Assembly: GCA_035221665.1 (NCBI GenBank)
Contig: CM069136.1
Coordinates: 22,010,001 to 22,074,000, forward strand
Length of the DNA stretch: 64,000 nucleotides
Direction: 5' to 3'
Source of the DNA: Okamejei kenojei
Taxonomy: Eukaryota
Part shown: one piece after another, positions 8,740-62,075 of the stretch
Layout: every line of letters starts with the position of its first letter
How positions within the stretch are numbered: the stretch's first letter is position 1
Program-made: the position numbers and the translations under genes
The notes under the pieces: generated by a model
Databases searched by the model: none
Told to the model about the DNA's origin: nothing
Seen by the model: the letters and a program-made list of their open reading frames with translations, nothing else

Positions 8740-10507
8740 CCCACTGCTCACCGGGAATGTCCCACTGCTCACCGGGAATGTCGCTGACACTGGGAATGTC
8801 CCTGCTCACCGGGAATGTAACTGTTCACCAGGAATGTATCTGCTCACTGGGAATGTCCCTGCTCACCGGGAATGTCTCTGCTCACCGGGAATGCCCCACT
8901 GCTCACCGGGAATGTCCCACTGCTCACCGGGAATGTCGCTGACACTGGGAATGTCCCTGCTCACCGGGAATGTAACTGTTCACCAGGAATGTATCTGCTC
9001 ACCGGGAATGCCCCACTGCTCACCGGGAATGGATCTGCTCACCAGGAATGTCACTGCTCACCGGAAATGTCACTGCTCACCGGGAATGACACACTGCTCA
9101 CTGGGAATGTCCCACTGCTCACCAGGAATGTCCCTTCTCACCTGGAATGTTCCTGCTCACCCGGATTGTCGCTGCTCACTGGGAATATCCCACTGTTCAC
9201 TGGGAATGTTCCACTGCTAACCGGTAATGTCGCTCCTCACTGGGAATGCCCCTGCTCACCAGGAATGTCCCACTGCTCACCGGGAATGTCACTGTTCACC
9301 GGGAATGTCCCACTGCTCACCGGGAAGGTCCCACTGCTCACTGGGAATGCCACACTACTCACCGGGAATGTCACACTGCTCACCGGGAATGTCCCACTGC
9401 TCACCGGGAATGTTGCTACTCACTGGGAATGTCACACTGCCCACCGGGAATGTCCCACTGCTCACCGGGAATGTCACTGCTCACCAGGAATGTTACTGCT
9501 CACTGGGAATGTCCTGGCTCACCGGGAATGTCCCACTGCTAACCGGGAGTGTTCCACTGCTCACTGGTAATATCCCACTGCTCATGGGAATGTCACACTG
9601 CTCAATGTTCCACTGCTCACTGGGAATGTTACTGCTCACTGGGAATGTTACTGCTCACTGGGAATGTCACTGCTCACTGGGAATGTCCCTGCTCACCGGG
9701 AATGTCCCACTGCTCACCGGGAATGTTCCTCTGCTCACCGGAAATGTCACTGCTCACCAGGAATGTTACTGCTCACTGGGAATGTCCTGGCTCACCGGGA
9801 ATATCCCACTGCTAACCGGGAGTGTCCCCCTGCTCACTGGTAATATCCCACTGCTCACTGGGAATGTCACACTGCTCAATGTTCCACTGCTCACTGGGAA
9901 TGTTACTGCTCACTGGGAATGTTACTGCTCACTGGGAATGTCGCTGCTCACTGGGAATGTCCCTGCTCACCGGGAATGTCCCTGCTCACCGGGAATGTCC
10001 CTGCTCACCGGGAATGTTCCTCTGCTCACCGGAAATGTCACTGCTCACTGGGAATGTCACTGCTCACCGCGAAGGTCCCACTGCTCACCGGGAATGTCCC
10101 ACTGCTCATCGGGAATGTCGTTGCTCTCTGGGAATGTCTCTGCTCACTGGGAATGTCCCTGCTCACCGGGAATGTCCCACTGCTCACCGGGAATGTTCCT
10201 CTGCTCACCGGAAATGTCACTGCTCACTGGGAATGTCACTGCTCACCGCGAAGGTTCCACTGCTCACCGGGAATTTCCCACTGCTCATCGGGAATGTCGC
10301 TGCTCACTGGGAATGTCTCTGCTCACCGGGAATGTCACACTGCTCACCGGAAATGTCATTGCTCACTAGGATTGCCTCTGCTCACCCGGAATGTTCCTGC
10401 TCACCCAGAATGTCGCTGCTCACTGGGAATGTCCCTGCTCACCGGGAATGTCCCACTGCTCACCGGGAATGTCCCACTGCTCACCGGGAATGTCCCACTG
10501 CTCACCG
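8740..10507. repeat. Minisatellite with 18/21-bp units (CCA)CTGCTCACYGGGAATGTC, roughly 90 units
   Basis: Directly visible tandem array; explains the long low-complexity ORFs in all three + frames. Confidence 0.98.
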
Positions 10508-11451: not shown

Positions 11452-11644
11452 CTGCTTCTTCTTTTCATGTCCATCTTGGTACAAATATTGGCCTCACTGT
11501 CATTGTCCGTCCTGAAAAGAACGCAAGCTTCCAGCGACAATCAGTGGAAGCCATCGTCGCAATAGATGATGGTGGTAGCAGAATTAGCTTAGGATACTTC
11601 CAGTTTCCAGCCCCGCGACGTGGACGCTTCAGCTATGGGGTCAC
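11452..11644 (-). mobile_element. ~200-bp ribozyme-headed non-autonomous retroposon, copy A (probably Ingi/Vingi-clade derivative)
   Basis: TSD CAGTTAAGT at 11443-11451 and 11645-11653; AAAAGAAGAAG tail; colinear with 39319-39517. Confidence 0.85.
11576..11642 (-). ncRNA. HDV-like (CPEB3-like) self-cleaving ribozyme fold, copy A
   Basis: GACCCC-A-TAGCTGAA-GCG-TCCACGT-CGC-GGGGCT-GG-AAACTGGAAGTATCCTAAG-CTAA-TTCTGCTA gives P1, P2, P3, L3, P1.1 and J4/2 in HDV order; one mismatch each in P1 and P2. Confidence 0.75.
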
Positions 11645-12003: not shown

Positions 12004-14640
12004 AGAAACATAGAAAATAGAAAATAGTATTTATGTCCCTTAGGTTGAATCTTTAGGTTAGTTGAAGGGAAATAGTAAAATTGGAAAAAGCCATGGTTTT
12101 CGGGAAATTGAACACTTGTTTCGAAAAAAGAGAGATATCGGAGACCTGCACCGCTTTGGCAAGAAAGGTGAAAGTCCCAAAGGGTTTCTACAGCTATCTT
12201 AATAGATAATGGCCATTAGATCAGCTCTGCATCTGCAGCTAAAAGCCAATTTCTTTTCTCGGTATTCACCAAGTATTGAACTCGGTGACTATGGAAACTA
12301 TCCTGACACTTCCAGGTCCTGATATTCCCTAGGACCAGGAGCTATGACTATTTCAAATGTCATTAGCCACCATTGTTTAAAAAGGGTTCAAAGAATAAAC
12401 CTACAATTATAGACCTATTAGTTTATGTCAGTGGTGGGCAAATTAATGAAAGAATACTTAGAGATAATATATATAAAGCAACTGGATAAACTCTGATCAG
12501 GAATATATTTGCCAAACCTTCTTGAATTTTTTGAAGCTGGGAAAATGATGAGGGTAAAGCCTCAGTAAGGCCTTTGATTCAATGCGGAAGAGAATTTCAA
12601 CAGTGGCTGAATGGGAGATGTCAGATAATGGTGTGGCTGTTTGTCAGGTTGGAAAGCCGTGTGACCAGTGGGTGCCTCAGGATCTGTGTTGATGTAAAAT
12701 GATGAAAATTTAATATGGCAGATGATACTAAGATAGGTGGTGTTGTGGAAAATGAAGTAGATTTTCATCTACAGAGAGATTTGGCCATGGGCCTAAAAGA
12801 CTTCCTCCTATATACTTAAACTGTGACCCCTTGTCCTGGACTTCCCTTCGGAACAATCTTCCTGCATCTAGCCCCCAAACAAGGGCATTAAATTAAGAAG
12901 AGGTTTTGTGGTGGAAGATCGATCTATGAGATCCCCCCTCAATCTTCTGCTGTAAATTCCATTCTGCCCTTCGAGCCCGCACCGCCATTCAATATGATCA
13001 ATCATCCAACACAGCCGAGTCTATCCAGTCTTTCTTCATATGGAAGTCCTGCCATCGCAGGAATCCGTCTGGTGAACCTTCTCTGTACTCCCTCTATGTC
13101 AAGCATGTCTTTCCTCAGATTAGGAGACCAAAACTGTACGCAATACTCCAGGTGTGGCCTTGCCAAGACCCTGTACAACTGCAGTAGAACCTCCCTGCTC
13201 TTGTACTAAAATCCTTTTGCTATGAATACCAACATACCATTCACTTTCTTCACAGCCTGCTGCACCTGCTTGCCTACCTTCAATGACAGGTGTACCATGA
13301 CACCCAGGTCTTGTTGCCTCTCCCCTTTTCCTAATCGGTCACCATTCAAATAATAGTCTACTTTCCTGTTTTTGCCACCAAAGCGGATAACCTCAGATTT
13401 ATCCACATTATACTGCATCTGCCATGGATTTGCCCACTCACGCAGCCTATCCAAGTCACCTTGTAGCCTCCTAGCATCCTCCTCACTGCTAACACTGCCC
13501 AGCTTCGTGTCATCCGCAAACCTCGAGATGTTGCATTTAATTCCCTCGTCCAAATCATTAATATATATTGTAAATAGCTGGGGTCCCAGCACTGAGTCTT
13601 GCAGCACCCCTCTACTCATTGCCTTCCAATCCTGAAAAGGACCCGTTCACTCCTAATCTTTGCTTCCTGTCTGCCAGCCAGTTCTCTATCCACATTAATA
13701 CTGAATCGCCAATACCATGTGCTTCAAGTTTGTATACTAGTCTCTTGTGTGGGACCTTGTCGAAAGCCTTCTGAAAGTCCAGATATAACACATCCACTGG
13801 TTCTCCCTTATCCACTCTACTAGTTACATCCTCGAAAAAATTTATAAGATTCGTCAGACATGATTTACCTTTCGTAAATCCATGCTGACTTTGTCCAATG
13901 ATTTCACTACTTTCCAAATATGCTGCTATCCCATCTTTAGTAACTGACACTAGCAGTTTCCCCACTACAGATGTTAGACTAACTGGTCTGTAATTCCCCA
14001 TTTTCTCTCTCCCTCCCTTTTTAAAAAGTGGGGTTACATTAGCTACCCTCCAATCCTCAGGAACTACTCCAGAATCTAAAGAGTTTTGAAAAATTATCAC
14101 TAAGGCATCCACTATTTCTGGGGCTACTTCCTTAAGTACCCTGGGATGCAGCCTATCTGGCCCTGGGGATTTATTGGCCTTTAATCCATTCAATTTACCT
14201 AACACCACTTTCCGACTAACCTGGATTTCACTCAGTTCCTCCATCTCATTTGACCCATGATCCCCTGCTATTTCCGGCAAATTATTTATGTCTTCCTTAG
14301 TGAAGACAGAACCAAAGTAGTTATTCAATTGCTCTGCCATGTCTTGTTCTCCATGATCAATTCACCTGTTTCTGACTGCAAGGGACCTACATTTGTTTTT
14401 ACTAACCTTTTTCGCTTCACATATCGATATGAGCTTCAGTCAGTTTGTTTGTTTCCTGCAAGTTTTCTTTCATAATCCATTTTCCATTTCCTAATTAAGC
14501 CCTTTGTCCTCCTCTGTTGGATTCTGAATTTATCCCAGTCCTCTGGTAGGCTGCTTTCTCTGGCTAATTTGTACGCTTCATCTTTTGCTTTGATACTATC
14601 CCTGATTTCCCTTGTTATCCACGGATGCACTACCTTCCCT
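12001..14640 (-). mobile_element. CR1 LINE with RT domain, nested in another CR1; includes a disordered 12030-13010 segment
   Basis: ORFs 13612-14340 (NYRPVSLTSVVGK, QHGF, YLDFQKAFDKVPH) and 13206-13619 (SVLGPQLF, FADDTKL); CATAGAAA tail at 12001. Confidence 0.9.
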
Positions 14641-16423: not shown

Positions 16424-18222
16424 AATGAATGAATGAATGAATTAATGAATATGTTTATTGGCCAAGTAGTCACATACAAGGAATTTGCCTTGGTGCTCCA
16501 CCCGCAAGTGACAACATGACATACAGTGACAGTTAGGAATGATACATAAAATATTAAACATTATTAATAAAACATTATTGATTAAACATGTGAATTAAAT
16601 AAAATACCAGAGTAAAAGGAAGCTACAGACTTTTGGTTATTGAGTAGAGCTACTAATCGTGGATAAAAAGCTGTTTTTATGTCTGGCTGTGGCAGCTTTG
16701 ACAGTCCGGAGTCGCCTTCCAGAGGGAAGTGACTCAAAGAGTTTGTGGCCAGGGTCAGAGGGGTCAGAGATGATCTTACCCGCTCGCTTCTTGGCCCTTG
16801 CAGTGTACAGTTCGGCAATGGAGGGAAGGTTGCAGCCAATAACCTTCTCAGCTGATCGGACGATTTGCTGCAGCCTCCGGGTGTCGTGCTTTGTTGCTGA
16901 GACAAACCAGACCATGATGGAGAAAGTGAGGACAGACTCTACGATGGCCGTGTAGAATTGGACCATCATTGCCTGTGGCAGATTGTGCTTCCTCAGTTGC
17001 CACAGGAAGTACATCCTATGTAGTCCCTTTTTAACTGTGGAGTCGATGGTATCCCCCCCACTTAAGGTCCTTGAAGATGATGGTTCCCAGGAACTTAAAA
17101 TACTCCACAGATGTGGCTGTGGTGTTGTAGATGATGAGTGGGGTGAGGGGAGGAGGAGCTCTCCTAAAGTCTACAATCAATTCCACTGCCTTAAGAGCAT
17201 TGTGTTGCGATGGTACCAGGACACCAGCTATGACACTTCCTGTCTGTAGGCAGATTCCTCCCAATGGATCAGTCCAATCAGGGTTGTGCCGTCCGCAAAC
17301 TTGAGAAGCTTGACAAGGAGTCAGTGGAGGTGCAGTCATTGGTGTAGAGAGAGTAGAGGAGAGGGGATGGTAGGTAGCCTTGTTGAGGAGCATAATCCTT
17401 GCCTTTTTGGGTAAATGGACAAAAATTTACCATTTTTGGAAGCAGGCAGGGACAGTACAGGTTTGCAGGGACTGGTTGAAAATGTCTGTGTAGACTGGTG
17501 CCAGTTGTTTGGCACAGAGCTTGAGAGTACTTTCAGAGCAAAAGGATTTGAGTATAGGAGCAGGGAGGTTCTACTTCAGTTGTATAGGGTCTTGGTGAGA
17601 CCACACCCGGAGTATTGCGAACAGTTCTGGTCTCCAAATCTGAGGAAGGACATTATTGCCATAGAGGGAGTGCAGAGAAGGTTCACCAGACTGATTCCTG
17701 GGATGTCAGGACTGTCTTATGAAGAAAGACTGGATAGACTCGGTTTATACTCTCTGGAATATAGGAGATTGAGAGGGATCTTATAGAAACTTACAAAATT
17801 CTTAAGGGGTTGGACAGGCTAGATGCAGGAAGATTGTTCCCGATGTTGGGGAAGTCCAGGACAAGGGGTCACAGCTTAAGGATAAGGGGGAAATCCTTTA
17901 AGACCGAGATGAGAAAGACTTTTTTTCACACAGAGAGTGGTGAGTCTCTGGAACGCTCTGCCGCAGAGGGTAGTTGAGGCCAGTTCATTGGCTATATTTA
18001 AGAGGGGGTTAAATGTGGCCCTTGTGGCTAAGAGGATCAGGGGGTATGGAGAGATGGCAAGTACGGGATACTGAGTTGGATGATCAGCCATGATCAAATT
18101 GAATGGCGGTGCAGGCTCGAAGGGCCGAATGGCCTACTCCTGCACCTAATTTCTGTGTTTCTATGTTTCTAGTAGAGGGGGAATCATTGTCCGGTCCTGG
18201 AGATTACCGGCTTTTCTCCCAG
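16424..18222 (-). mobile_element. Rex1/Babar LINE (RT remnant plus C-terminal domain), internally deleted, with CR1 inserted at 17530-18170
   Basis: ORF 16637-17014 (FYTAIVESVLTFSIMVWF, GHKLFESLPSGRR); LAPVYTDIFNQSL-type RT segment at 17437-17529; (ATTC)n tail; AGTA repeated at 17526 and 18171. Confidence 0.88.
17530..18170 (+). mobile_element. CR1 LINE 3' portion nested in Rex1
   Basis: AKGFEYRSREVLLQLYRVLVRPH and TTTCTATG tail. Confidence 0.93.
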
Positions 18223-28774: not shown

Positions 28775-30395
28775 AGTCATAGTCATAAAGTGATACCCTG
28801 CCGAAACAGGCACTTTGGCCCAACTTGCCCACACTGGCCAACATGTTCCAGATATCCTAGTCCCACCTGCCTGCATTTGGTCGTTATCCTACTGAACCTG
28901 TCCTATCCATGTACCTATCTAACTGTTTCTTAAATGTTGGGATAGTCCCCGCCTCAACTACCTCCTTTGGCAGCTTGTTCCATACACACAGCATCCTTTG
29001 TGTGAAAAGGTTCTTCTCAGATTCCTATTAAATCTTTTCCACTTCACATTAAACTATGTCCTCTGGTCCTCGATTCACTTTCTCTGGGCATGAGACTCTG
29101 TGCATCTACCGGATCAATTCCTCTCATTACTTTTTACACTACTATAAGATTACCCCTCATCCTATTCACTCCAAGGAATAGAGTCTGTGCTACTCAATCT
29201 CTCCCTATTGCTCAGACCCTCTAGTCCTGACAATATCCTTGTGAATCTTCCCTGTACCCTTTCCAGTTTGACAATATCTTTCCTATAACATGGTGCCCAG
29301 AACTGAACACAATATTCTAAATGTGGTCTCACCAACGTCTTATACAACTGCAACATGACCTCCCAACTTCTATACTCAATACTCCGACTGATGAAGGCAA
29401 ATGTGCCAAAAGCCTTTTTGACCACCTTATTTACCTGCGACTCGACCTTCAAGGAACCATGCACCTGTACTCCTGGATCCCTCTGCTCTACAACACTACC
29501 CAGAGGCCGACCATTCACTGTGTAGGTCCTGCCCATGTTAGACTTCCCAAAATGCAACATCTCACATTTTTCTGTGTTAAATTCCATCAACCATTCCTCA
29601 GCCCACTTGACCAATCGATCAAGATCCTGCTGCAATTTTTCACAACCATCTTCGCTCTCTGCAAAACCACCCACTTTTGTATTAGTAGCAAACTTGCTAA
29701 TCTTGCCCTGTATGTTCTCATACAAATCATTGATGTAGATGACAAACAGTAACGGGCCCAGCACCGAACCCTGAGGCACACCACTAGTCACAGGCCTCCA
29801 GTCCCAGAAGCAACCTTCCACCATCACCCTCTGCTTCTTTCCATGAAGCCAATTTGCTATCCATTCAGCTATCTCACCTTGGATCCCATGCGATCTAACC
29901 TTCCAGAGCAGCCTACCACACGGAACCTTGTCGAACGCCTTACTGTAATTCATGTATACAACATCTACAGCTCTGCCCTCATCGACCTTTTTAGTCACGT
30001 CTTCAAAAAAAACTATCAGATTTGTGAGGGACGACCTCCCAAGTACAAAACCACGCTGACTATCCCTAATCACTTCTTGCCCATCCAAATGCCTGTATAT
30101 CCTATCCCTCAGAATACTCTCCAGTAACATTCCAACTACAGATTATAAGCTTATCGGCCTATAGATCCCATCGTTTTCCCTGCAGGCATTCTTGAATAGA
30201 GGCACAACATTTGCCACCCTCCAGTCTTCCGGCACCTCTCCTGTATTTAAGAACGACTGATAAATTTCAACCAGGGCTCCCACAATGTTCTCTCTAGTTT
30301 CCTACAATGCCCTCGGATATATCTGATCAGGCCCTGGAGATTTGTCTACCCTCATACATGGTAGTACCTTCAGCACCTCTTTGACCATAACACTT
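28775..30395 (-). mobile_element. CR1 LINE, RT domain largely intact but decayed
   Basis: 322-aa ORF 29162-30130 with SKAFDKV, SGVPQGSVLGPLLF, LVRPHLEYCVQFWAP; the catalytic FADD motif reads FATN. Confidence 0.95.
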
Positions 30396-37950: not shown

Positions 37951-39318
37951 CTTCTGTATCACCTCCCGATAGTGAAATTATTTATTAAAGACATTCAATC
38001 AATAACTTTCTACAGTTCAAAAAAGCTAACCTTTTACTTGAGTAATAAAAACAATTGTGATTTCAGTGGCAAGATTATAATTTGTCATCGATAACTAATT
38101 GTCTATATTGTCATGGATGGCTAATAGTTGTTACAGGCATCATATGGGATAAGAGAAGAGGGTCCTGACTAGAACAACAAATTGGACCACAGTCCACACC
38201 TGTACAATCATGGAATAAGAGAAACATAGAAAGCTAAACACACTGAAGGAGCCATTTGGCTTAGTGCTAGTCAAAAATGAGGCCCCCAACCTCCCAGAGC
38301 TATGTTCTCATCCCTGTAGCAGGTGACTGTTAAAGAACACATCAAAGCACTGATTAAATGCGATGAGGTTACTCTGCCAGTCACCTTTGCTGGAGCCCGT
38401 TTTGCTCCCACAGGCACCTCGGCTGATTGAAGAAGTTAATTTTGAGCCACCTGTCTTGCCAGCAGGAACAAGAGAAATCCTGGGAGGAAGTTGAGATCAT
38501 GGCCAATGGACATTTGGTCGGAGCATTGTGAAGGTAAGAGCTATATTTCAGCTTCTTCTGATTCATACCAAAATAAAGTCTATTTATGTTCACAGTGGCT
38601 GAAAAAATAAGTGGAATTAAGCTGTTATTCTTCCTGGGCACAAACTTTTCATTCATTTCTTGGGGTCTCAGCATTGCTGGAAGGCCAACATTTATTACAC
38701 ATCCTTAATTACTCTTGACAACTCGGTTTGGGCCATTTTTTTAAACCATTGTATTCTATTTGGTGAAGCTGGGCTGAACTGCTGTTGGGTAGGGAGCTCT
38801 GGGATTTTGAACAAGTGGATAAAGTCTGATTTAGTCATGATTGCGTTTCTATGCCTTTCGGTTCATAGAGTCCCAGAATCATAGAGAAATACAGCACAGA
38901 AACCTACTCAGTCCGTAATGTCAAAGTACCCATTTACTCTATTTCTACACAAATCCCAATAAATTTCCCTTAAATCCAATCAACACTATTAGATTCTACC
39001 ATTCACGTACCCGCAAGTGTAAACAATATGATATGATATTTATTTATCCCAGGAGGGAAATTGATCTGCCAATAGTCATAAAACACAAGATACATGAAGT
39101 GACGTTAATCTGACAACTTGCGCATTTACTGACATGTCGGACAAAACCAGACCATCTTTGGGAAACCGTTTGGAAATGCCTCACAGTCAGTATCAGAGCC
39201 CATAGACGAAACCTGAAACATTAACTGTTTTTTTTTCATGCAAATGCTATCTGATTTGCTGAACATTTCCAACATTTCTGGTTTCATATTGGAAATCAGG
39301 TCATTGTAGCTGTGAGGT

Positions 39319-39388
39319 GGCCCCATAGCAGAAGCGTCCACTTCGCTGGACTGGAAACTGGAATTATGAAACTGAACTAACTCTGCTA
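39319..39388 (+). ncRNA. HDV-like (CPEB3-like) self-cleaving ribozyme fold, copy B
   Basis: GGCCCC-A-TAGCAGAA-GCG-TCCACTT-CGC-TGGACT-GG-...-CTAA-CTCTGCTA; P1 3' strand has two mismatches in this copy. Confidence 0.7.
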
Positions 39389-39517
39389 CCACCATCATCT
39401 ACTGCAACAAGTGATGGCTTCCACTGATTGTCGCCGGAAGCTTGCGTCCTTTTCAGGACGGACGATGACAGCGAGGTCAACATTTGTAACAAGATGGACA
39501 CAAAAAGAAGAAGAAGA
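39319..39517 (+). mobile_element. ~200-bp ribozyme-headed non-autonomous retroposon, copy B
   Basis: TSD AGCTGTGAGGT (39308-39318) / AGCTCTGAGGT (39518-39528); (GAA)n tail; inserted in an old V-SINE head. Confidence 0.88.
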
Positions 39518-39559
39518 AGCTCTGAGGTAGCAGATCTATGAGCTGAGCCATTGTGCTGC

Positions 39560-45274: not shown

Positions 45275-47305
45275 AACAATCACAGTAAAGGAGTTAGTGG
45301 TGGACTTCAGGAGGAGAGGAACATCCCTGTCCCCAGTCTCCATCAATGGTGTGGATGTGCAGTTTACCAGGGAGTACAAATGCCTTGGAGTTTACCTGCA
45401 GAGTAAACTGGACTGGACTGGTCCAGGAACGCTGAGGCCCTGTACAAGAAAGGACAGAGCCGGCTGTACTTTTTGAGAAGGCTCCGCTCCTTCAACGTCT
45501 GCAGTGAGATGCTGCAGATGTTCTACCAATCGGTGGTAGCCAGTGCCATCTTCTTCACTGCCGTGTGCTGGAGTAGCAGGGTGAAGGCTGCGTATGCCAA
45601 TAGATCTCAATAAACTCATCAAGAAGGCTGGCTCCGTCCTGGGGCTGGAGTTGGATTCACGGGAGGTGGTCTTGGAGGGGAGGATGCTCGCCAAACTGCG
45701 GAGCATCTTGGACGATACAGCTCACCCTCTCCATGACATACTGGTCAACCTGAGGAGTACCTTCAGCAACATAGAAACATAGAAACATAGAAAATAGGTG
45801 CAGGAGTAAGCCATTCGGCCCTTCGAGCCTGCACCGCCATTCCATATGATCATGGCTGATCATCCAACTCAGTATTCTGTACCTGCCTTCTCTCCATACC
45901 CTCTGATCCCCTTAGCCACAGGGGCCACATCTAACTCCCTCTTAAATACAGCCAATTAACTGGTCTCAACTACCTTCTGTGGCAAAGAATTCCACAGATT
46001 CACCACTCTCTGTGTGAAAAATGTTTTTCTCATCTCGGTCCTAAAAGACTTCACCCTTATCCTTAGACCGTGACCCCTCGTTCTGGACTTCCCCAACATC
46101 GGGAATAATCTTCCTGCATCCAGCCTGTCCAACCCCTTAAGAATTTTGTAAGTTTCTATAAGATCCCCCCTCAATCTTCTAAATTCTAGCAAGTACAAGC
46201 CAGGTCTATCCACTCTTTCTTCATATGAAAGTCGTGACATCCCAGGAATCAGTCTAGTGAACCTTCTCAATGACTGGTGTACCATGACACCCAGGTCTCG
46301 TTGCATCTCACTTCCTAATCGACCACCATTCAGATAATAGTCTACTTTCCTGTTTTTGCCACCAAAGTGGATAACCTCACATTTATCCACATTATACTGC
46401 ATCTGCCATGCATTTGCCCACTCACCCAACCTATCCAAGTCACCAAGCCTCTTAGCATCCTCCTCACAGCTAACACTGCCCCCCCAGCTTCGTGTCATCT
46501 GAAACTTGGAGATGTTGCATTCAATTCCCTCGTCCAAATCATTAATATATATTATAAATAGCTGGGGTCCCAACACCGAGCCTTGCGGTACCCCACTAGT
46601 CACTGCCTGCCATCCTGAAAAGGACCCGTTTACTCCTACTCTTTGCTTCCTGTCTGTCAACCAGTTCTCTATCCACATCAATGCTGAACCCCCAATACCG
46701 TGTGCTTTAAGTTTGCATACTAATCTCTTATGTGGGACCTTGTCGAAAGCCTTCTGAAAGTCCAGATATAACACATCCACTGGTTCTCCCTTATCCACTC
46801 TACTAGTTACATCCTCGAAAAAATTTATAAGATTCGTCAGACATGATTTACCTTTCATAAATCCATGCTGACTTTGTCCAATGATTTCACCACTTTCCAA
46901 ATATGTTGCTATCCCATCTTTAGTAACTGACACTAGCAGTTTCCGCACTACCGATGTTAGACTCACTGGTCTGTCATTCCCCGTTTTCTCTCTCCCTCCC
47001 TTTTTAAAAAGTGGGGTTACATTAGCTACCCTCCAATCCTCAGGAACTACTCCAGAGTCTAAAGAGTTTTGAAAAACAGAATGGTTCCACCAAGATGCAG
47101 CACAGAACGCCACAGGAGATCCTTTTTCCCAGTGGCTATCAAACTCCTCCCACTTATGTCATGGGCTAGACTGAGTCACCCCCCCCCCCACCCAATCCTT
47201 TCCACTCGTCACTTTAATTTCATGTTTCACGTTTTTTGTGTTTTTATGATTGTTGGCAGATCAATTTCCCTCCTGGGATAAATAAAGTTCTATCGTATCG
47301 TTTTG
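45275..47305 (+). mobile_element. Rex1/Babar LINE 3' portion split by a CR1 insertion
   Basis: HPLHDILVNLRSTFSN (ends ~45769) resumes as RMVPPRCSTERHRRSFFPVAIKL (from ~47077). Confidence 0.88.
45769..47073 (-). mobile_element. CR1 LINE RT region with internal deletion
   Basis: ORF 45956-47113 (YLDFQKAFDKVPH, SGVPQGSVLGPQLF); CATAGAAA tail; very similar to 13300-14100. Confidence 0.95.
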
Positions 47306-49939: not shown

Positions 49940-52800
49940 ATCAAGTCAAGTCAACTTTATTTGTCACATACACATACACATACAAGATGTGCAGTGAAAT
50001 GAAAGTGGCAATGCCCGTGGATTGTGCAAAAACAACAGAACAACAGAACACAACCAGTATTTACATTTGAGACCAAAAAGGACACAACACAACAGTAAAT
50101 TAGTCCCTGGTGAGATTAGAGTTTACAGTCCTGACGGCCTGTTGGAAGAAACTCCATCTCATCCTCTCTATTTTCACAGAGCGACAGCGGAGGCATTTGC
50201 CTGACCGTAGCAGCTGGAACAGTCCGTGCTGGGGTGGTAGAGGTCCCTCATTATCTTGCTGGCTCTGGATCTGCACGTCCTGGTGTATAGGTCCTGCAGG
50301 GGGTTGAGTGTGGTAAAGGCGGCCGAACGCACTACTCTCTGCAGAGCCTTCCTGTCCTGGGCAGAGCCAGATTGTGATGTTGCCGGACAAGATGCTTTCT
50401 ACAGCCCCAGAGTAGAAGCACTAAAGGATCCTCAGAGAGACTCTGAATTTCCTCAGCTGCCTGAGGTGGTAAAGGCGCTGCCTTGCCTTACTCACCAGTG
50501 CAGCAGTGTGTGTTGTCCATGTCAGATCCTCTGTGATGTGGACACCCAGGTATTTAAAGCAGCTCACCCTATCCACAATAGTCCCATTTATCTCCAGTGG
50601 CGTATACGTACTCTGTGTTGAGCCCTTCTAAAGTCCACAATCAGCTCCTTAGTTTTTGTGACATTCAAGAGGAGGCTGTTGTCCTGACATCATAGTGCCA
50701 GATCATCCACCTCCTCCCGGTAGGCCTTTGCATCGTTATCAGAGATCAGGCCCACCACCACAGTGTCATCAGCAAACTTGATGATGGAGTTTTATTTTTA
50801 ATTTTTTTTTAAATTGGTACAGGAGGAGGCCATTCGGCCCCTCGAGCCAGCACCGCCATTCTTTGTGATCATGGCTGATCGTCCGCTATCAATAACCCGT
50901 GGCTGCCTTCTCCCCATATCCCTTGACTTCACTAGCCCCTGGAGCTCTATCCAAAATCCACAGAGGGCAGTGGATTTTTCCTCCACTGACCTCCGTGGCA
51001 GGGAATTCCATAAATCCACAACTCTCTGGGTAAAAAAGTTTTTTCTCAGCTCAATCTTAAATGACCTCCCCTTTATTCTAAGACTGTGGCCCCTGGTTCT
51101 GGACTCACCCAACATTGGGAACATTTTTCCTGCATCTAGCTTGTCCAGTCCTGTTATAATTGTATATGTTTCTATAAGATTCCCCCTCATCCTTCTAAAC
51201 TCCAGTGAATACAAGCCTAGTCTTTTCAATCTTTCCTCATATGACAGTCCCGCCATCCCAGGGATCAATCGCGTGAACCTACGCTGCACTGCCTCAATCA
51301 CAAGGATGTCCTTCCTCAAGTTAGGAGACCAAAACTGTACACAATACTCCAGATGTGGTCTCACCAGAGCCCTATACAACTGCAGAAGAACCTCGTTACT
51401 CCTATACTGAAATCCTCTTGTTATGAAGGCCAACATTCCATTAGCTTTCTTCACTGCCTGCTATACCTGCACGCCAACTTTCAGTGACCGGTGGACAAGG
51501 ACACCCAGGTCTCACTGTACCTCCCCCTTACCTAACCTAACCCCATTGAGATGATAATCTGCCCCCTTGTTTTTGCCGCTAAGGTGGATAACCTCACATT
51601 TATCTATATTACACTGCATCTGCCACGCATCTGCCCACTAACTCAACCTGTCCAGGTCCCCCTGCAACCTCCTAACATTCTCTTCACAGAGTTGGAGCTG
51701 AACCTGGCCACACAGTCATGTGTGTACAGGGAGTACAGTAGGGAACTGAGGATGCAACCCTGTGGGGGATCCTGTGTTCAGGGTGAGGGGGTTGGAGGTA
51801 TGTTGCCCCATCTTGACCACCTGGGGCCTGGCGGTGAGAAAGTCCAGGACCCAGGCACACAGGGGAGTGTTCAGTCCCAGTTCCAGCAGCTTCTCAGCAA
51901 GTCTGAACTGAAATCAATGAACAGCATCCGCAAATAGCTCCCCTACTGGCTGTCAAGGTGAGAGAGAGTGGTGTGCAGAACCTGGGAGACCGCATCATCC
52001 ATGGATCTGTTTGGTCGGTGTGCAAACTGCAGCGGGTCCATGGTACGAGGGAGGAAGGCACAGATGTGGTTCTTGATCAGCCTCTCGAAGCATTTCATGA
52101 CCACCGAGGTGAGGGCCACCGGACAGTAGTCATTCAAGCAAGCTGGAGAGGCATTCTTTGGCACTGGTACAATGATGGATCTTTTGAAGCAGGCAGGGAC
52201 CACGGACTTTGCCCGGGAGAGGTTGAATATTGTGGTGAACACTGGAGCTAGCTGAGTAGCACAGACTTTAGTACTCGCCCAGATATACCATCTGGGCCTA
52301 CAGCTTTCCTCGTGTCCACACGGGTTACAGCCCTCCTCACGTCGTGCTCGGTCAACAAGAATGTGTGCACATCCCCAGCGGTGGACCTCCCTCCAGCCTC
52401 GTTAGCCAGCACGCTGGTGGTGTTGTTGTTAGCCGGCGAGCTAGGGGTGATGTTGCCCGTCTCAAATCGTGCGTAGAAAGAGTTCAGGTCATCAGCTAGG
52501 GAGTTGCCTGCACTTCCGATTGAGGGGCGCTGCTCTGGTAGTCAGTTATAGTCCGTAGCCCCTGCCAATGTTGTCTGGTGTCCCACTGCTCCATCTGTGA
52601 CTCCATCCCGTCCCTGTACCTCCTTTTTGCGTCCTTCACCGCTCTTCGCAGTCAGTAGGACTCTGCCTTGAAGTCGTCCATATTGCCGGATGCCAGGCCG
52701 GAGTTGTAAGCAGCGGTGCGGGCATTCAAAGCAACGCGAATGCACCTGTCCACCCAGGGTTTTTGATTAGGACTGATGCTAACCATGGGGACGATGTTCT
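49940..52800 (-). mobile_element. Rex1/Babar LINE with RT domain, split by a CR1
   Basis: ORF 51943-52242 (VPACFKRSIIVPVPK, LNDYCPVALTSVVMKCFERL, DPLQFA); KFADDT near 50765-50780; (CTTGA)n tail. Confidence 0.92.
50792..51688 (-). mobile_element. CR1 3' portion with A-rich tail
   Basis: ORF 50798-51454; GAGTT duplicated at 50787-50791 and 51689-51693. Confidence 0.93.
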
Positions 52801-61316: not shown

Positions 61317-62075
61317 AATGAATAAGTAAGTTTATAAGTTTATTGGCCAAGTATGTACACATACAAGGAATTTGCCCAGGTTTGCCACAAGTAAAACACG
61401 ACATACAGCAAACAATTAAGAATAAACATAAAACATTAAAACATTAAGAATAAAACATTATAGTTTAAACATGTAATTGAAATAAAATACCAGAGCAAAA
61501 GGGGGCTACAGACTTTTGGTTATTGAATAGAGCTACTGCTCGTGGAAAAAAACAGTTTTTATGTCTGGCTTTGGTAGCTTTGACAGTCCGGAGTGACCTT
61601 CCAGAGGGAAGAGATTCAAAGAGTTTGTGGCCAGGGTGAGAGGTGATCTTACCCGCTCGCTCCCTGGACCTTGCAGTGTACAGTTCGTCAATGGAGGGAA
61701 GGTTGCAGCCAACAACCTTGTCAGCTGAGCGAACGATTCGCTGCAGCCTCTGGATGTCGTGCTTGGTGGCTGAACCAAACCAGACCATGATGGAGAAGGT
61801 GAGGACAGACTCTACGATGGCCATATAGAATTGGACCATCATTGCCTGTGGCAGATTGTGCTTCCTCAGCTGCCGCAGGAAGTACATCCTCTGTTGTGCC
61901 TCTTTGACTGTGGAGTCGATGATGGCCCCTCATTTAAGGTCCTTGGAGATGATGGTTCCAAGGAACTTAAAATACTCCACGGATGTGACTGTAGTGTTGT
62001 TGATGGTGATTTGGGGGAGGGGAGGGGGTGCTCTCCTATCTACTATCAATTCCACTGTCTTAAGGGCATTGAATT
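61317..62075 (-). mobile_element. Rex1/Babar LINE 3' portion (same subfamily as 16424-17395)
   Basis: ORF 61465-61887 nearly identical to ORF 16637-17014. Confidence 0.92.

What the first reader, a model, noticed from the sequence alone, without database searches (positions are those of the whole stretch)
39325..39388. Ribozyme core closely matches the mammalian CPEB3 ribozyme in sequence
The reconstructed core A-TAGCAGAA-GCG-TCCACGT-CGC ... CTAA-TTCTGCTA compares with human CPEB3, as I recall it: A-CAGCAGAA-GCG-TTCACGT-CGC ... CGAA-TTCTGCTG. P2 differs only by a compensatory terminal pair (T-A versus C-G) and L3 by one base. HDV-like ribozymes generally share fold rather than helix sequence, so this identity suggests common descent. 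Inference: the single-copy intronic CPEB3 ribozyme could be a domesticated 5' end of this retroelement lineage, and a mobile relative survives in cartilaginous fish. I cannot check whether this link is already published.
Basis: partly seen in the sequence, partly recalled or inferred. Interest (0 to 1): 0.85.

Follow-up and report, generated by a model that had tools for sequence, protein, structure and literature searches.

The report
Retrotransposon source of mammalian CPEB3 ribozyme
The flagged bases are a decayed self-cutting RNA at the front of a small jumping gene, and its sister jumping genes match the memory-linked mammalian CPEB3 ribozyme so closely that the mammalian ribozyme was very probably captured from this lineage.

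Summary
The stretch is the head of a ~197-bp internally deleted, Vingi-type non-LTR retrotransposon (39319-39517; 2572 candidates genome-wide). Its first base is the predicted cut site of an HDV-like ribozyme. This copy is damaged: 18.9 bits on Rfam CPEB3, no better than phage ribozymes. The conclusion still holds, on better evidence. Sister families reach 66.8 bits. One matches ancestral CPEB3 at 58 of 63 positions outside L4, including all of the P4 stem; control maxima were P1 4/6, P2 5/7, P4 4/7. Heads lie on APE-RT elements lacking RNase H, here and in metagenome contigs. Inverted and solo heads with target duplications occur, a route to a lone intronic ribozyme. Common descent about 0.85. 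The window family is a cousin, not the donor. Cleavage and mammalian flanks are untested (one 19-nt panda flank showed no remnant). No paper naming this donor in 10 searches, but key Luptak and Kojima papers were unavailable. The scan had not noted it before.

The parts
39306..39318 (+). Left target-site duplication (11 of 13 identical to the right copy; inner 11 bp 10 of 11)
39319..39388 (+). HDV-like ribozyme head, damaged in this copy. P1 39319-324 with 39347-352 (4 of 6 pairs left); P2 39326-333 with 39381-388 (7 of 8); P3 39334-336 with 39344-346; L3 39337-343 (conserved G lost); P1.1 GG 39353-354; P4 region 39355-376; J4/2 39377-380 with the predicted catalytic C at 39377. G39319 is both the predicted cleavage site and the first base of the insertion
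   Evidence: catalytic role inferred from C57 of CPEB3 (PMC9901934)
39389..39404 (+). Start of the parental LINE 5' UTR (CA-rich linker present behind the heads of all CPEB3-like families)
39406..39478 (+). End of the parental 5' UTR, ATG at 39414 and about the first 21 codons of the LINE ORF (90% identical to L100)
39479..39517 (+). 3' end of the parental LINE (79% to L100) and (GAA)n tail
39516..39528 (+). Right target-site duplication (first bases overlap the tail)
11455..11642 (-). Second copy of the same element; ribozyme 11642-11576 with one broken pair each in P1 and P2, core bases kept; 9-bp flanking repeat by eye

Best explanation
The feature is the 5' HDV-like ribozyme of a non-autonomous, internally deleted Vingi-type LINE. 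Shown: dispersed copies, target duplications, a tail, a 3.1-kb APE-RT parent, and an insertion boundary at G1. Inferred: a source copy is read through from upstream DNA, the ribozyme cuts in front of G1, and the parent's protein copies the trimmed RNA into a new site, so nearly all copies begin at G1. This copy has since decayed. The mammalian CPEB3 ribozyme descends from the head of an element of the same Vingi sub-lineage that landed in CPEB3 intron 2 before the marsupial-placental split and was kept by selection (inferred). The nearest relatives seen are family B of this genome and metagenome element L150/L174, not the window family. Solo and inverted heads are a recurring insertion product, which would leave a ribozyme without a LINE body.
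For: Element: 2572 candidates, 40 scored. TSD score >=7 in 26 of 30 copies against 4 of 300 shifted controls, peaking at offset 0 = G1. 25 of 30 copies picked on their 3' half start within 4 nt of G1. Parent L100 is 3.1 kb with an 11-bp TSD and shares the three segments at 78, 90 and 79%; L298 is a second LINE copy with the same head. Fold: 20 heads of families A-D and metagenomes, 23 pairs, 87% of cells paired, 37 two-sided changes against 10.8 shuffled (0 of 500), slid controls 1-8. CPEB3 link: RF00622 on the genome gave 42 matches of 59 scored, 30 over cut-off, best 66.8 bits, and 0 of 14 control genomes. 20 of 20 such loci given hit only RF00622 among HDV-type models. Family B majority (7 copies) equals the ancestral CPEB3 at 58 of 63 positions outside L4, with the P4 stem 7 of 7 bp and one difference a compensatory P2 pair (by eye). 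L174 equals opossum CPEB3 at 37 of the first 38 bases. In 58 distinct phage/prokaryote HDV-like motifs the maxima were P1 4/6, P2 5/7, P4 4/7 and P1+P2 9/13; rough chance for family B is 1e-8 to 2e-6. Compensatory changes in CPEB3 helices are tolerated (PMC9901934), so catalysis does not fix helix letters. The human genome holds Vingi traces (X12_LINE; PMC5753468). Solo heads with perfect 10-bp TSDs: L050, L051.
Against: No self-cleavage was measured. The focal copy alone is indistinguishable from phage ribozymes (18.9 against up to 22.4 bits). The U.U P1.1 (22 of 58 controls) and CGAA J4/2 (6 of 58) are not diagnostic. The controls are almost all phage minimal ribozymes; R2, RTE and R4 heads were not in the panel. 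The one mammalian 3' flank seen (panda, 19 nt) has no CA-rich linker or repeat of the upstream flank. Family B copies are decayed (6.6-26% from their majority) and its first 7 positions rest on 3-6 of 7 copies. MFE folding of an intact copy is not better than shuffles (z 0.28; the method cannot model pseudoknots). Vingi-type family E has an HDV-like head that is not CPEB3-like, so the link is to a sub-lineage only. No labelled Vingi reference was available for the tree.
Confidence: 0.82

Rival explanations
1. Convergence: the element is a Vingi derivative with an HDV-like head, but the likeness to CPEB3 comes from the constraints of a small, fast HDV fold; CPEB3 arose de novo or from another source.
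For: The identical P3-L3-P3 occurs in phage motifs and in an unrelated metagenome repeat family (39 rows). The window family's P1 also occurs letter for letter in phage L359 and L415. Background helix identity is high (P1 46%, P2 41%). No flank remnant in panda.
Against: 0 of 58 controls exceed P1 4/6, P2 5/7 or P4 4/7, while family B has 6/6, 6/7 and 7/7 and L150/L174 have 6/6 and 7/7. Best control score 22.4 bits against 66.8. P4 is peripheral and differs freely even among Vingi families.
Confidence: 0.1
2. Shared descent through a different carrier: CPEB3 came from a SINE, another LINE clade or a circular RNA that had swapped ribozyme heads with Vingi, or the parent here is an Ingi-like or other sister clade rather than Vingi proper.
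For: Heads vary between families independently of RT distance (family E differs). LINE 5' parts are known to move into SINEs (PMC5786205). No named Vingi reference could be placed in the tree.
Against: Every CPEB3-like head whose body could be traced sits on the same single-ORF APE-RT type without RNase H. None of 120 listed RT relatives carries an RNase H Pfam.
Confidence: 0.06
3. Reverse direction: a host CPEB3-type ribozyme is ancient in vertebrates and was picked up by retroelements.
For: Only 59 of 141138 RF00622 candidates were scored, so a copy inside a CPEB intron here is not excluded.
Against: None of the 42 listed matches lies within 4 Mb of the five CPEB loci. CPEB3-like heads sit on lineages only 52-72% identical in RT/thumb to one reference, whose nearest named kin are sea urchins and a lancelet. 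The ribozyme is reported only from mammals (PMC8233481).
Confidence: 0.02

Closest known systems
Mammalian CPEB3 ribozyme (Rfam RF00622; Bendixsen 2021, PMC8233481)
   Same: HDV fold, P2, P3 and most of L3 in the window family; also P1, P4 stem and J4/2 in family B; P1 and P2 in L150/L174.
   Different: CPEB3 is single-copy, intronic and conserved about 159 My. These are multi-copy, decaying retroelement heads. The window family has a 6-bp P1, a two-pair P1.1 and an unrelated P4.
L1Tc/ingi Pr77 ribozyme and its short derivatives NARTc, RIME, SIDER (PMC3185411, PMC4035085; passages)
   Same: HDV-like ribozyme at base +1 of an APE-type LINE and of its internally deleted non-autonomous forms; sister clade.
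   Different: Trypanosomatid; Ingi has RNase H and Vingi lacks it (PMC13708176). No sequence link to CPEB3 is claimed in the passages read.
Vingi clade and its bipartite non-autonomous derivatives (PMC5786205, PMC13708176, PMC5753468; passages)
   Same: Single ORF, APE plus RT, no RNase H, about 3.1 kb, dispersed insertion, internal-deletion derivatives.
   Different: [quoted passage not shown]
Minimal/theta-type HDV-like ribozymes of phages, and drz-Spur-3 (oligos in PMC5984629)
   Same: 6-bp P1 followed by GG, 7-nt L3, CNRA J4/2; some phage motifs have the very same P3-L3 and P1 as the window family.
   Different: P2 and P4 letters differ; at most 22.4 bits on RF00622; the phage motifs lie beside tRNAs or genes, not at retroelement ends.

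Membership tests
HDV-like ribozymes | Nested double pseudoknot P1, P1.1, P2, P3, P4 | tested here: met
   Family level: all P1, P1.1, P2, P3 pairs and core bases intact in 10 of 29 and 4 of 26 located copies; covariation across sister families. P4 of the window family is only weakly paired. The focal copy has 3 broken pairs.
HDV-like ribozymes | Core bases: G1.U, L3 U and G, catalytic C and A in J4/2 | tested here: met
   Catalytic C in 29 of 29 and 26 of 26 located copies; the focal copy has lost the L3 G
HDV-like ribozymes | Self-cleavage 5' of G1 | not testable with these tools
   Indirect only: insertion boundary at G1
CPEB3 ribozyme (RF00622) | Score at or above gathering, 35 bits | tested here: inconclusive
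   Not met by the two window copies (18.9, 25.9); met by 13 of 20 family copies and 30 of 42 genome matches
CPEB3 ribozyme (RF00622) | Single copy in intron 2 of CPEB3 in mammals | tested here: not met
   Multi-copy; listed matches lie 4.7 Mb or more from the five CPEB loci. Paralogous relative, not an orthologue
Vingi clade | Single ORF with N-terminal APE endonuclease and RT | tested here: met
   L100, L063, L066 in broken frames; intact relatives P0001, P0004 with PF03372, PF14529, PF00078
Vingi clade | No RNase H (unlike Ingi) | tested here: met
   0 of 120 listed relatives and 0 of 7 scanned proteins, including L100's last frame
Vingi clade | Compact length near 3.1 kb; internally deleted non-autonomous derivatives | tested here: met
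   L100 is 3107 bp; Vingi-2_Gav is 3128 bp in PMC5786205
Vingi clade | RT groups with named Vingi elements | not testable with these tools
   No labelled reference held; the quick tree only separates these from the window's other RTs
tRNA/5S/7SL-headed SINE | Small-RNA-derived head with a Pol III promoter | tested here: not met
   The head is the LINE's own 5' end; no tRNA or 5S Rfam match at the element

The most novel reading that the evidence does not exclude
The mammalian CPEB3 ribozyme is an exapted Vingi 5' end, left as a solo or inverted head by an insertion route in which the ~100-nt ribozyme end is copied separately. Near-identical heads still sit on Vingi elements in cartilaginous fish and other animals and supply the missing outgroup, and this has not been published.
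Probability: 0.45. Interest if true: 0.85.

Novelty: new variant of a known kind. Interest (0 to 1): 0.72.

Why it matters
[quoted passage not shown] A named donor lineage gives an outgroup, a date bracket and testable flank predictions, and turns a memory-linked RNA into a case of transposon exaptation. It also adds Vingi, now used for gene writing with its native 5' UTR (PMC13708176), to the LINEs with a 5' ribozyme, and suggests inverted-head junction products worth checking in those systems.

Tried and rejected
Rfam at gathering on the window: nothing. One search was mis-aimed at a flank and hit an unrelated repeat; discarded. One search had one row on the wrong strand; redone. One search had wrong P1 indices; redone as (its binomials stand). 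My note that no viral hit had P1 and P2 pairing was wrong and was corrected. The strict CPEB3-like pattern gave 0 in viral contigs. U.U P1.1 and CGAA as shared derived marks: rejected. P3/L3 identity as evidence of descent: rejected. Expression: no RNA holder listed. One raw polyA run of another organism gave 136 reads, no pile-up of ends and 29 reads running through G1; random-fragment reads of decayed copies say nothing on cleavage. Selection on copies: non-CpG divergence 2.3% in the ribozyme against 3.3% behind it, in copies picked by similarity; not taken as evidence. The careful tree did not finish; only the quick tree is used. Downstream flanks were sought in papers: only the panda row gave any. 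Not held: Ruminski 2011, Kojima 2011, Webb 2009, Webb and Luptak 2011, Chadalavada 2010. Earlier scan notes: none on Vingi or this sequence.

Full report
Observation. The window (G000:C6:22010001-22074000) holds two copies of a short repeat, at 39319-39517 (+) and about 11642-11455 (-). The copy at the given coordinates has 28 of 34, two broken P1 pairs, one broken P2 pair and a lost L3 G. It scores 18.9 bits on RF00622 and the second copy 25.9, both under the cut-off of 35. Of 20 other copies given, 13 pass.

What the element is. A DNA search gave 2572 candidates, of which 40 were scored. Copies begin at the first G of P1 and end in (GAA)n. A target duplication was found in 26 of 30 copies against 4 of 300 shifted controls, best when anchored exactly at G1. 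Of 30 copies picked only on their 3' half, 25 start within 4 nt of G1. A pattern for the continuation of the short reading frame found 3 places. One, L100, is a 3107-bp broken LINE with an 11-bp duplication, and the short element equals its bases 1-86, the end of its 5' UTR with the first codons, and its 3' end. The parent's RT fragment is 81% identical to a protein named from Strongylocentrotus purpuratus. Its relatives are about 920-1050 aa when whole, with APE and RT, and 0 of 120 carry RNase H. This fits the description of Vingi in PMC13708176 (passages) and of its internally deleted derivatives in PMC5786205 (passages). The name rests on these features, not on a tree with labelled references.

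Mechanism. Shown: anatomy, boundary at G1, intact fold in 10 of 29 and 4 of 26 located copies, and covariation across sister heads (87% of cells paired, 37 two-sided changes against 10.8 in shuffles, 0 of 500, where relatedness inflates the shuffle test but the slid controls give only 1-8). Inferred from the Ingi-clade precedent (PMC3185411, PMC4035085, passages): the head cuts the element RNA out of a read-through transcript, and the parent's protein inserts it. Cleavage was not measured, and the flagged copy is probably dead.

The CPEB3 link. Searching the genome with RF00622 gave 42 matches of 59 candidates scored (141138 in the first look), 30 over the cut-off, best 66.8 bits, and none in 14 control genomes. 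They fall into four further families. Families A and D head near-full LINE copies (L063, L066). Family B heads are tied to Vingi-type 3' parts with RT and a C-terminal Cys/His motif. Family C is another short element; its parent was not traced. In 20 of these 30 loci given to Rfam, RF00622 was the only HDV-type hit. The majority of 7 family B heads (8 given, 1 not anchored) equals the ancestral CPEB3 sequence printed in the supplement of PMC8233481 (elephant row) at 58 of 63 positions outside L4. The differences are at 9, 15, 23, 32 and 62; 15 and 62 are one compensated pair, and the 7-bp P4 stem is the same. Single copy L032 matches 44 of the first 46 bases. Two lead into the same kind of ORF, and L174 equals opossum CPEB3 at 37 of the first 38 bases.

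Convergence control. Scans of viral and prokaryote collections gave 313 loci; 88 passed a full HDV descriptor and held 58 distinct motifs. But none exceeded P1 4/6, P2 5/7 or P4 4/7 against the CPEB3 letters. Of 19 phage loci given, chosen mostly as the most alike, the best RF00622 score was 22.4. Rough binomial chances are 5e-4 for the window family, 2e-5 for L150/L174 and 1e-8 to 2e-6 for family B. These treat positions as independent and ignore how many families exist. The panel lacks R2, RTE and R4 heads. Three eukaryote-type controls are at background by eye: Vingi-type family E, a long-linker metagenome family (39 rows; 0 of 6 given hit RF00622) and drz-Spur-3. Pairwise mutagenesis shows CPEB3 helices accept compensatory changes (PMC9901934, passages).

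Direction and route. A quick tree (45 rows, 300 columns; the careful run did not finish) puts the window family with S. purpuratus proteins, B with Diadema and A with Branchiostoma, each at 99-100 support. The CPEB3-like head thus spans deeply split lineages, while the host ribozyme is reported only from mammals, with a decayed platypus row in the supplement. None of the 42 listed matches is near the five CPEB loci. The human genome has Vingi traces. Among the 30 RF00622 loci, 10 have a Vingi body on the opposite strand starting within about 100 nt of the head and 3 have it colinear. Of 20 loci I picked for a closer look, 6 show an 11-15 bp duplication enclosing inverted head, body and tail (no random control run). 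Two, L050 and L051, are slightly clipped solo heads between perfect 10-bp repeats. A lone intronic ribozyme is therefore a natural product of this lineage. Against: the only mammalian 3' flank seen, 19 nt of panda, shows no remnant.

Prior work. Ten searches and term look-ups in 15 papers found no statement that CPEB3 derives from Vingi or Ingi. I saw passages only, except parts 1 and 4 of 6 and supplement rows of PMC8233481. PMC7761336 proposes co-option in general terms. [quoted passage not shown] The papers most likely to have noticed the likeness were not held (Webb 2009, Webb and Luptak 2011, Ruminski 2011, Kojima 2011), nor Repbase or Dfam. I put the chance that the specific link is unpublished at a little over one half.

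Verdict. The element is a new member of a known design. Interest 0.72.

Noticed in passing
L033, L037, L042, L043, L044, L060 (also L035, L038, L039, L045, L048, L049, L107): Vingi-type insertions in which the first ~85-105 nt (ribozyme plus linker) sit inverted, head-to-head against a 5'-truncated body, inside one target duplication; unlike the usual twin-priming picture (recalled), the inverted piece is the extreme 5' end.
   Followed up: partly
L250-L279: The base before G1 is a pyrimidine in 21 of 25 full-length copies picked on their 3' half (T15 C6 G2 A2); target preference or junction chemistry, unexplained.
   Followed up: partly
L100 against P0001: 81% amino-acid identity between a broken RT stretch here and a sea-urchin protein; families B and A likewise group with Diadema and Branchiostoma proteins, suggesting repeated horizontal transfer among marine animals.
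   Followed up: partly
L282, L283, L287, L300, L305: Young Vingi-type family E (copies 92-97% alike at the 5' end) with a different HDV-like head that scores on RF00094 (28.5 bits), not RF00622.
   Followed up: partly
L052-L055, L057, L059; L046: Further very short elements with CPEB3-like heads: family C (about 170 bp, minimal P4, GAA tail) and L046 (head joined almost directly to the tail).
   Followed up: no
L175:3463-3596 and 38 similar rows: High-copy metagenome repeat with an HDV-like fold, a hairpin of about 47 nt in J1/2 and a long P4; carrier element not identified.
   Followed up: no
L171:173-306: Two HDV-like motifs on opposite strands, abutting end to end, as in viroid-like or ambisense RNAs.
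   Followed up: no
L129:2399-3538 (L138, L238, L368): Four HDV-like motifs within 1.1 kb on one strand of a phage-like contig.
   Followed up: no
window 8741-10507: Minisatellite, 19-bp unit, about 90 copies; it produces several spurious long ORFs.
   Followed up: no
window 45956-47158, 29162-30142, 13612-14361, 51943-52401 (all minus): RT fragments; the two longest were put in the tree and fall far outside the Vingi-type group. PF09004 hits at 16637-17170 and 61465-61929.
   Followed up: partly
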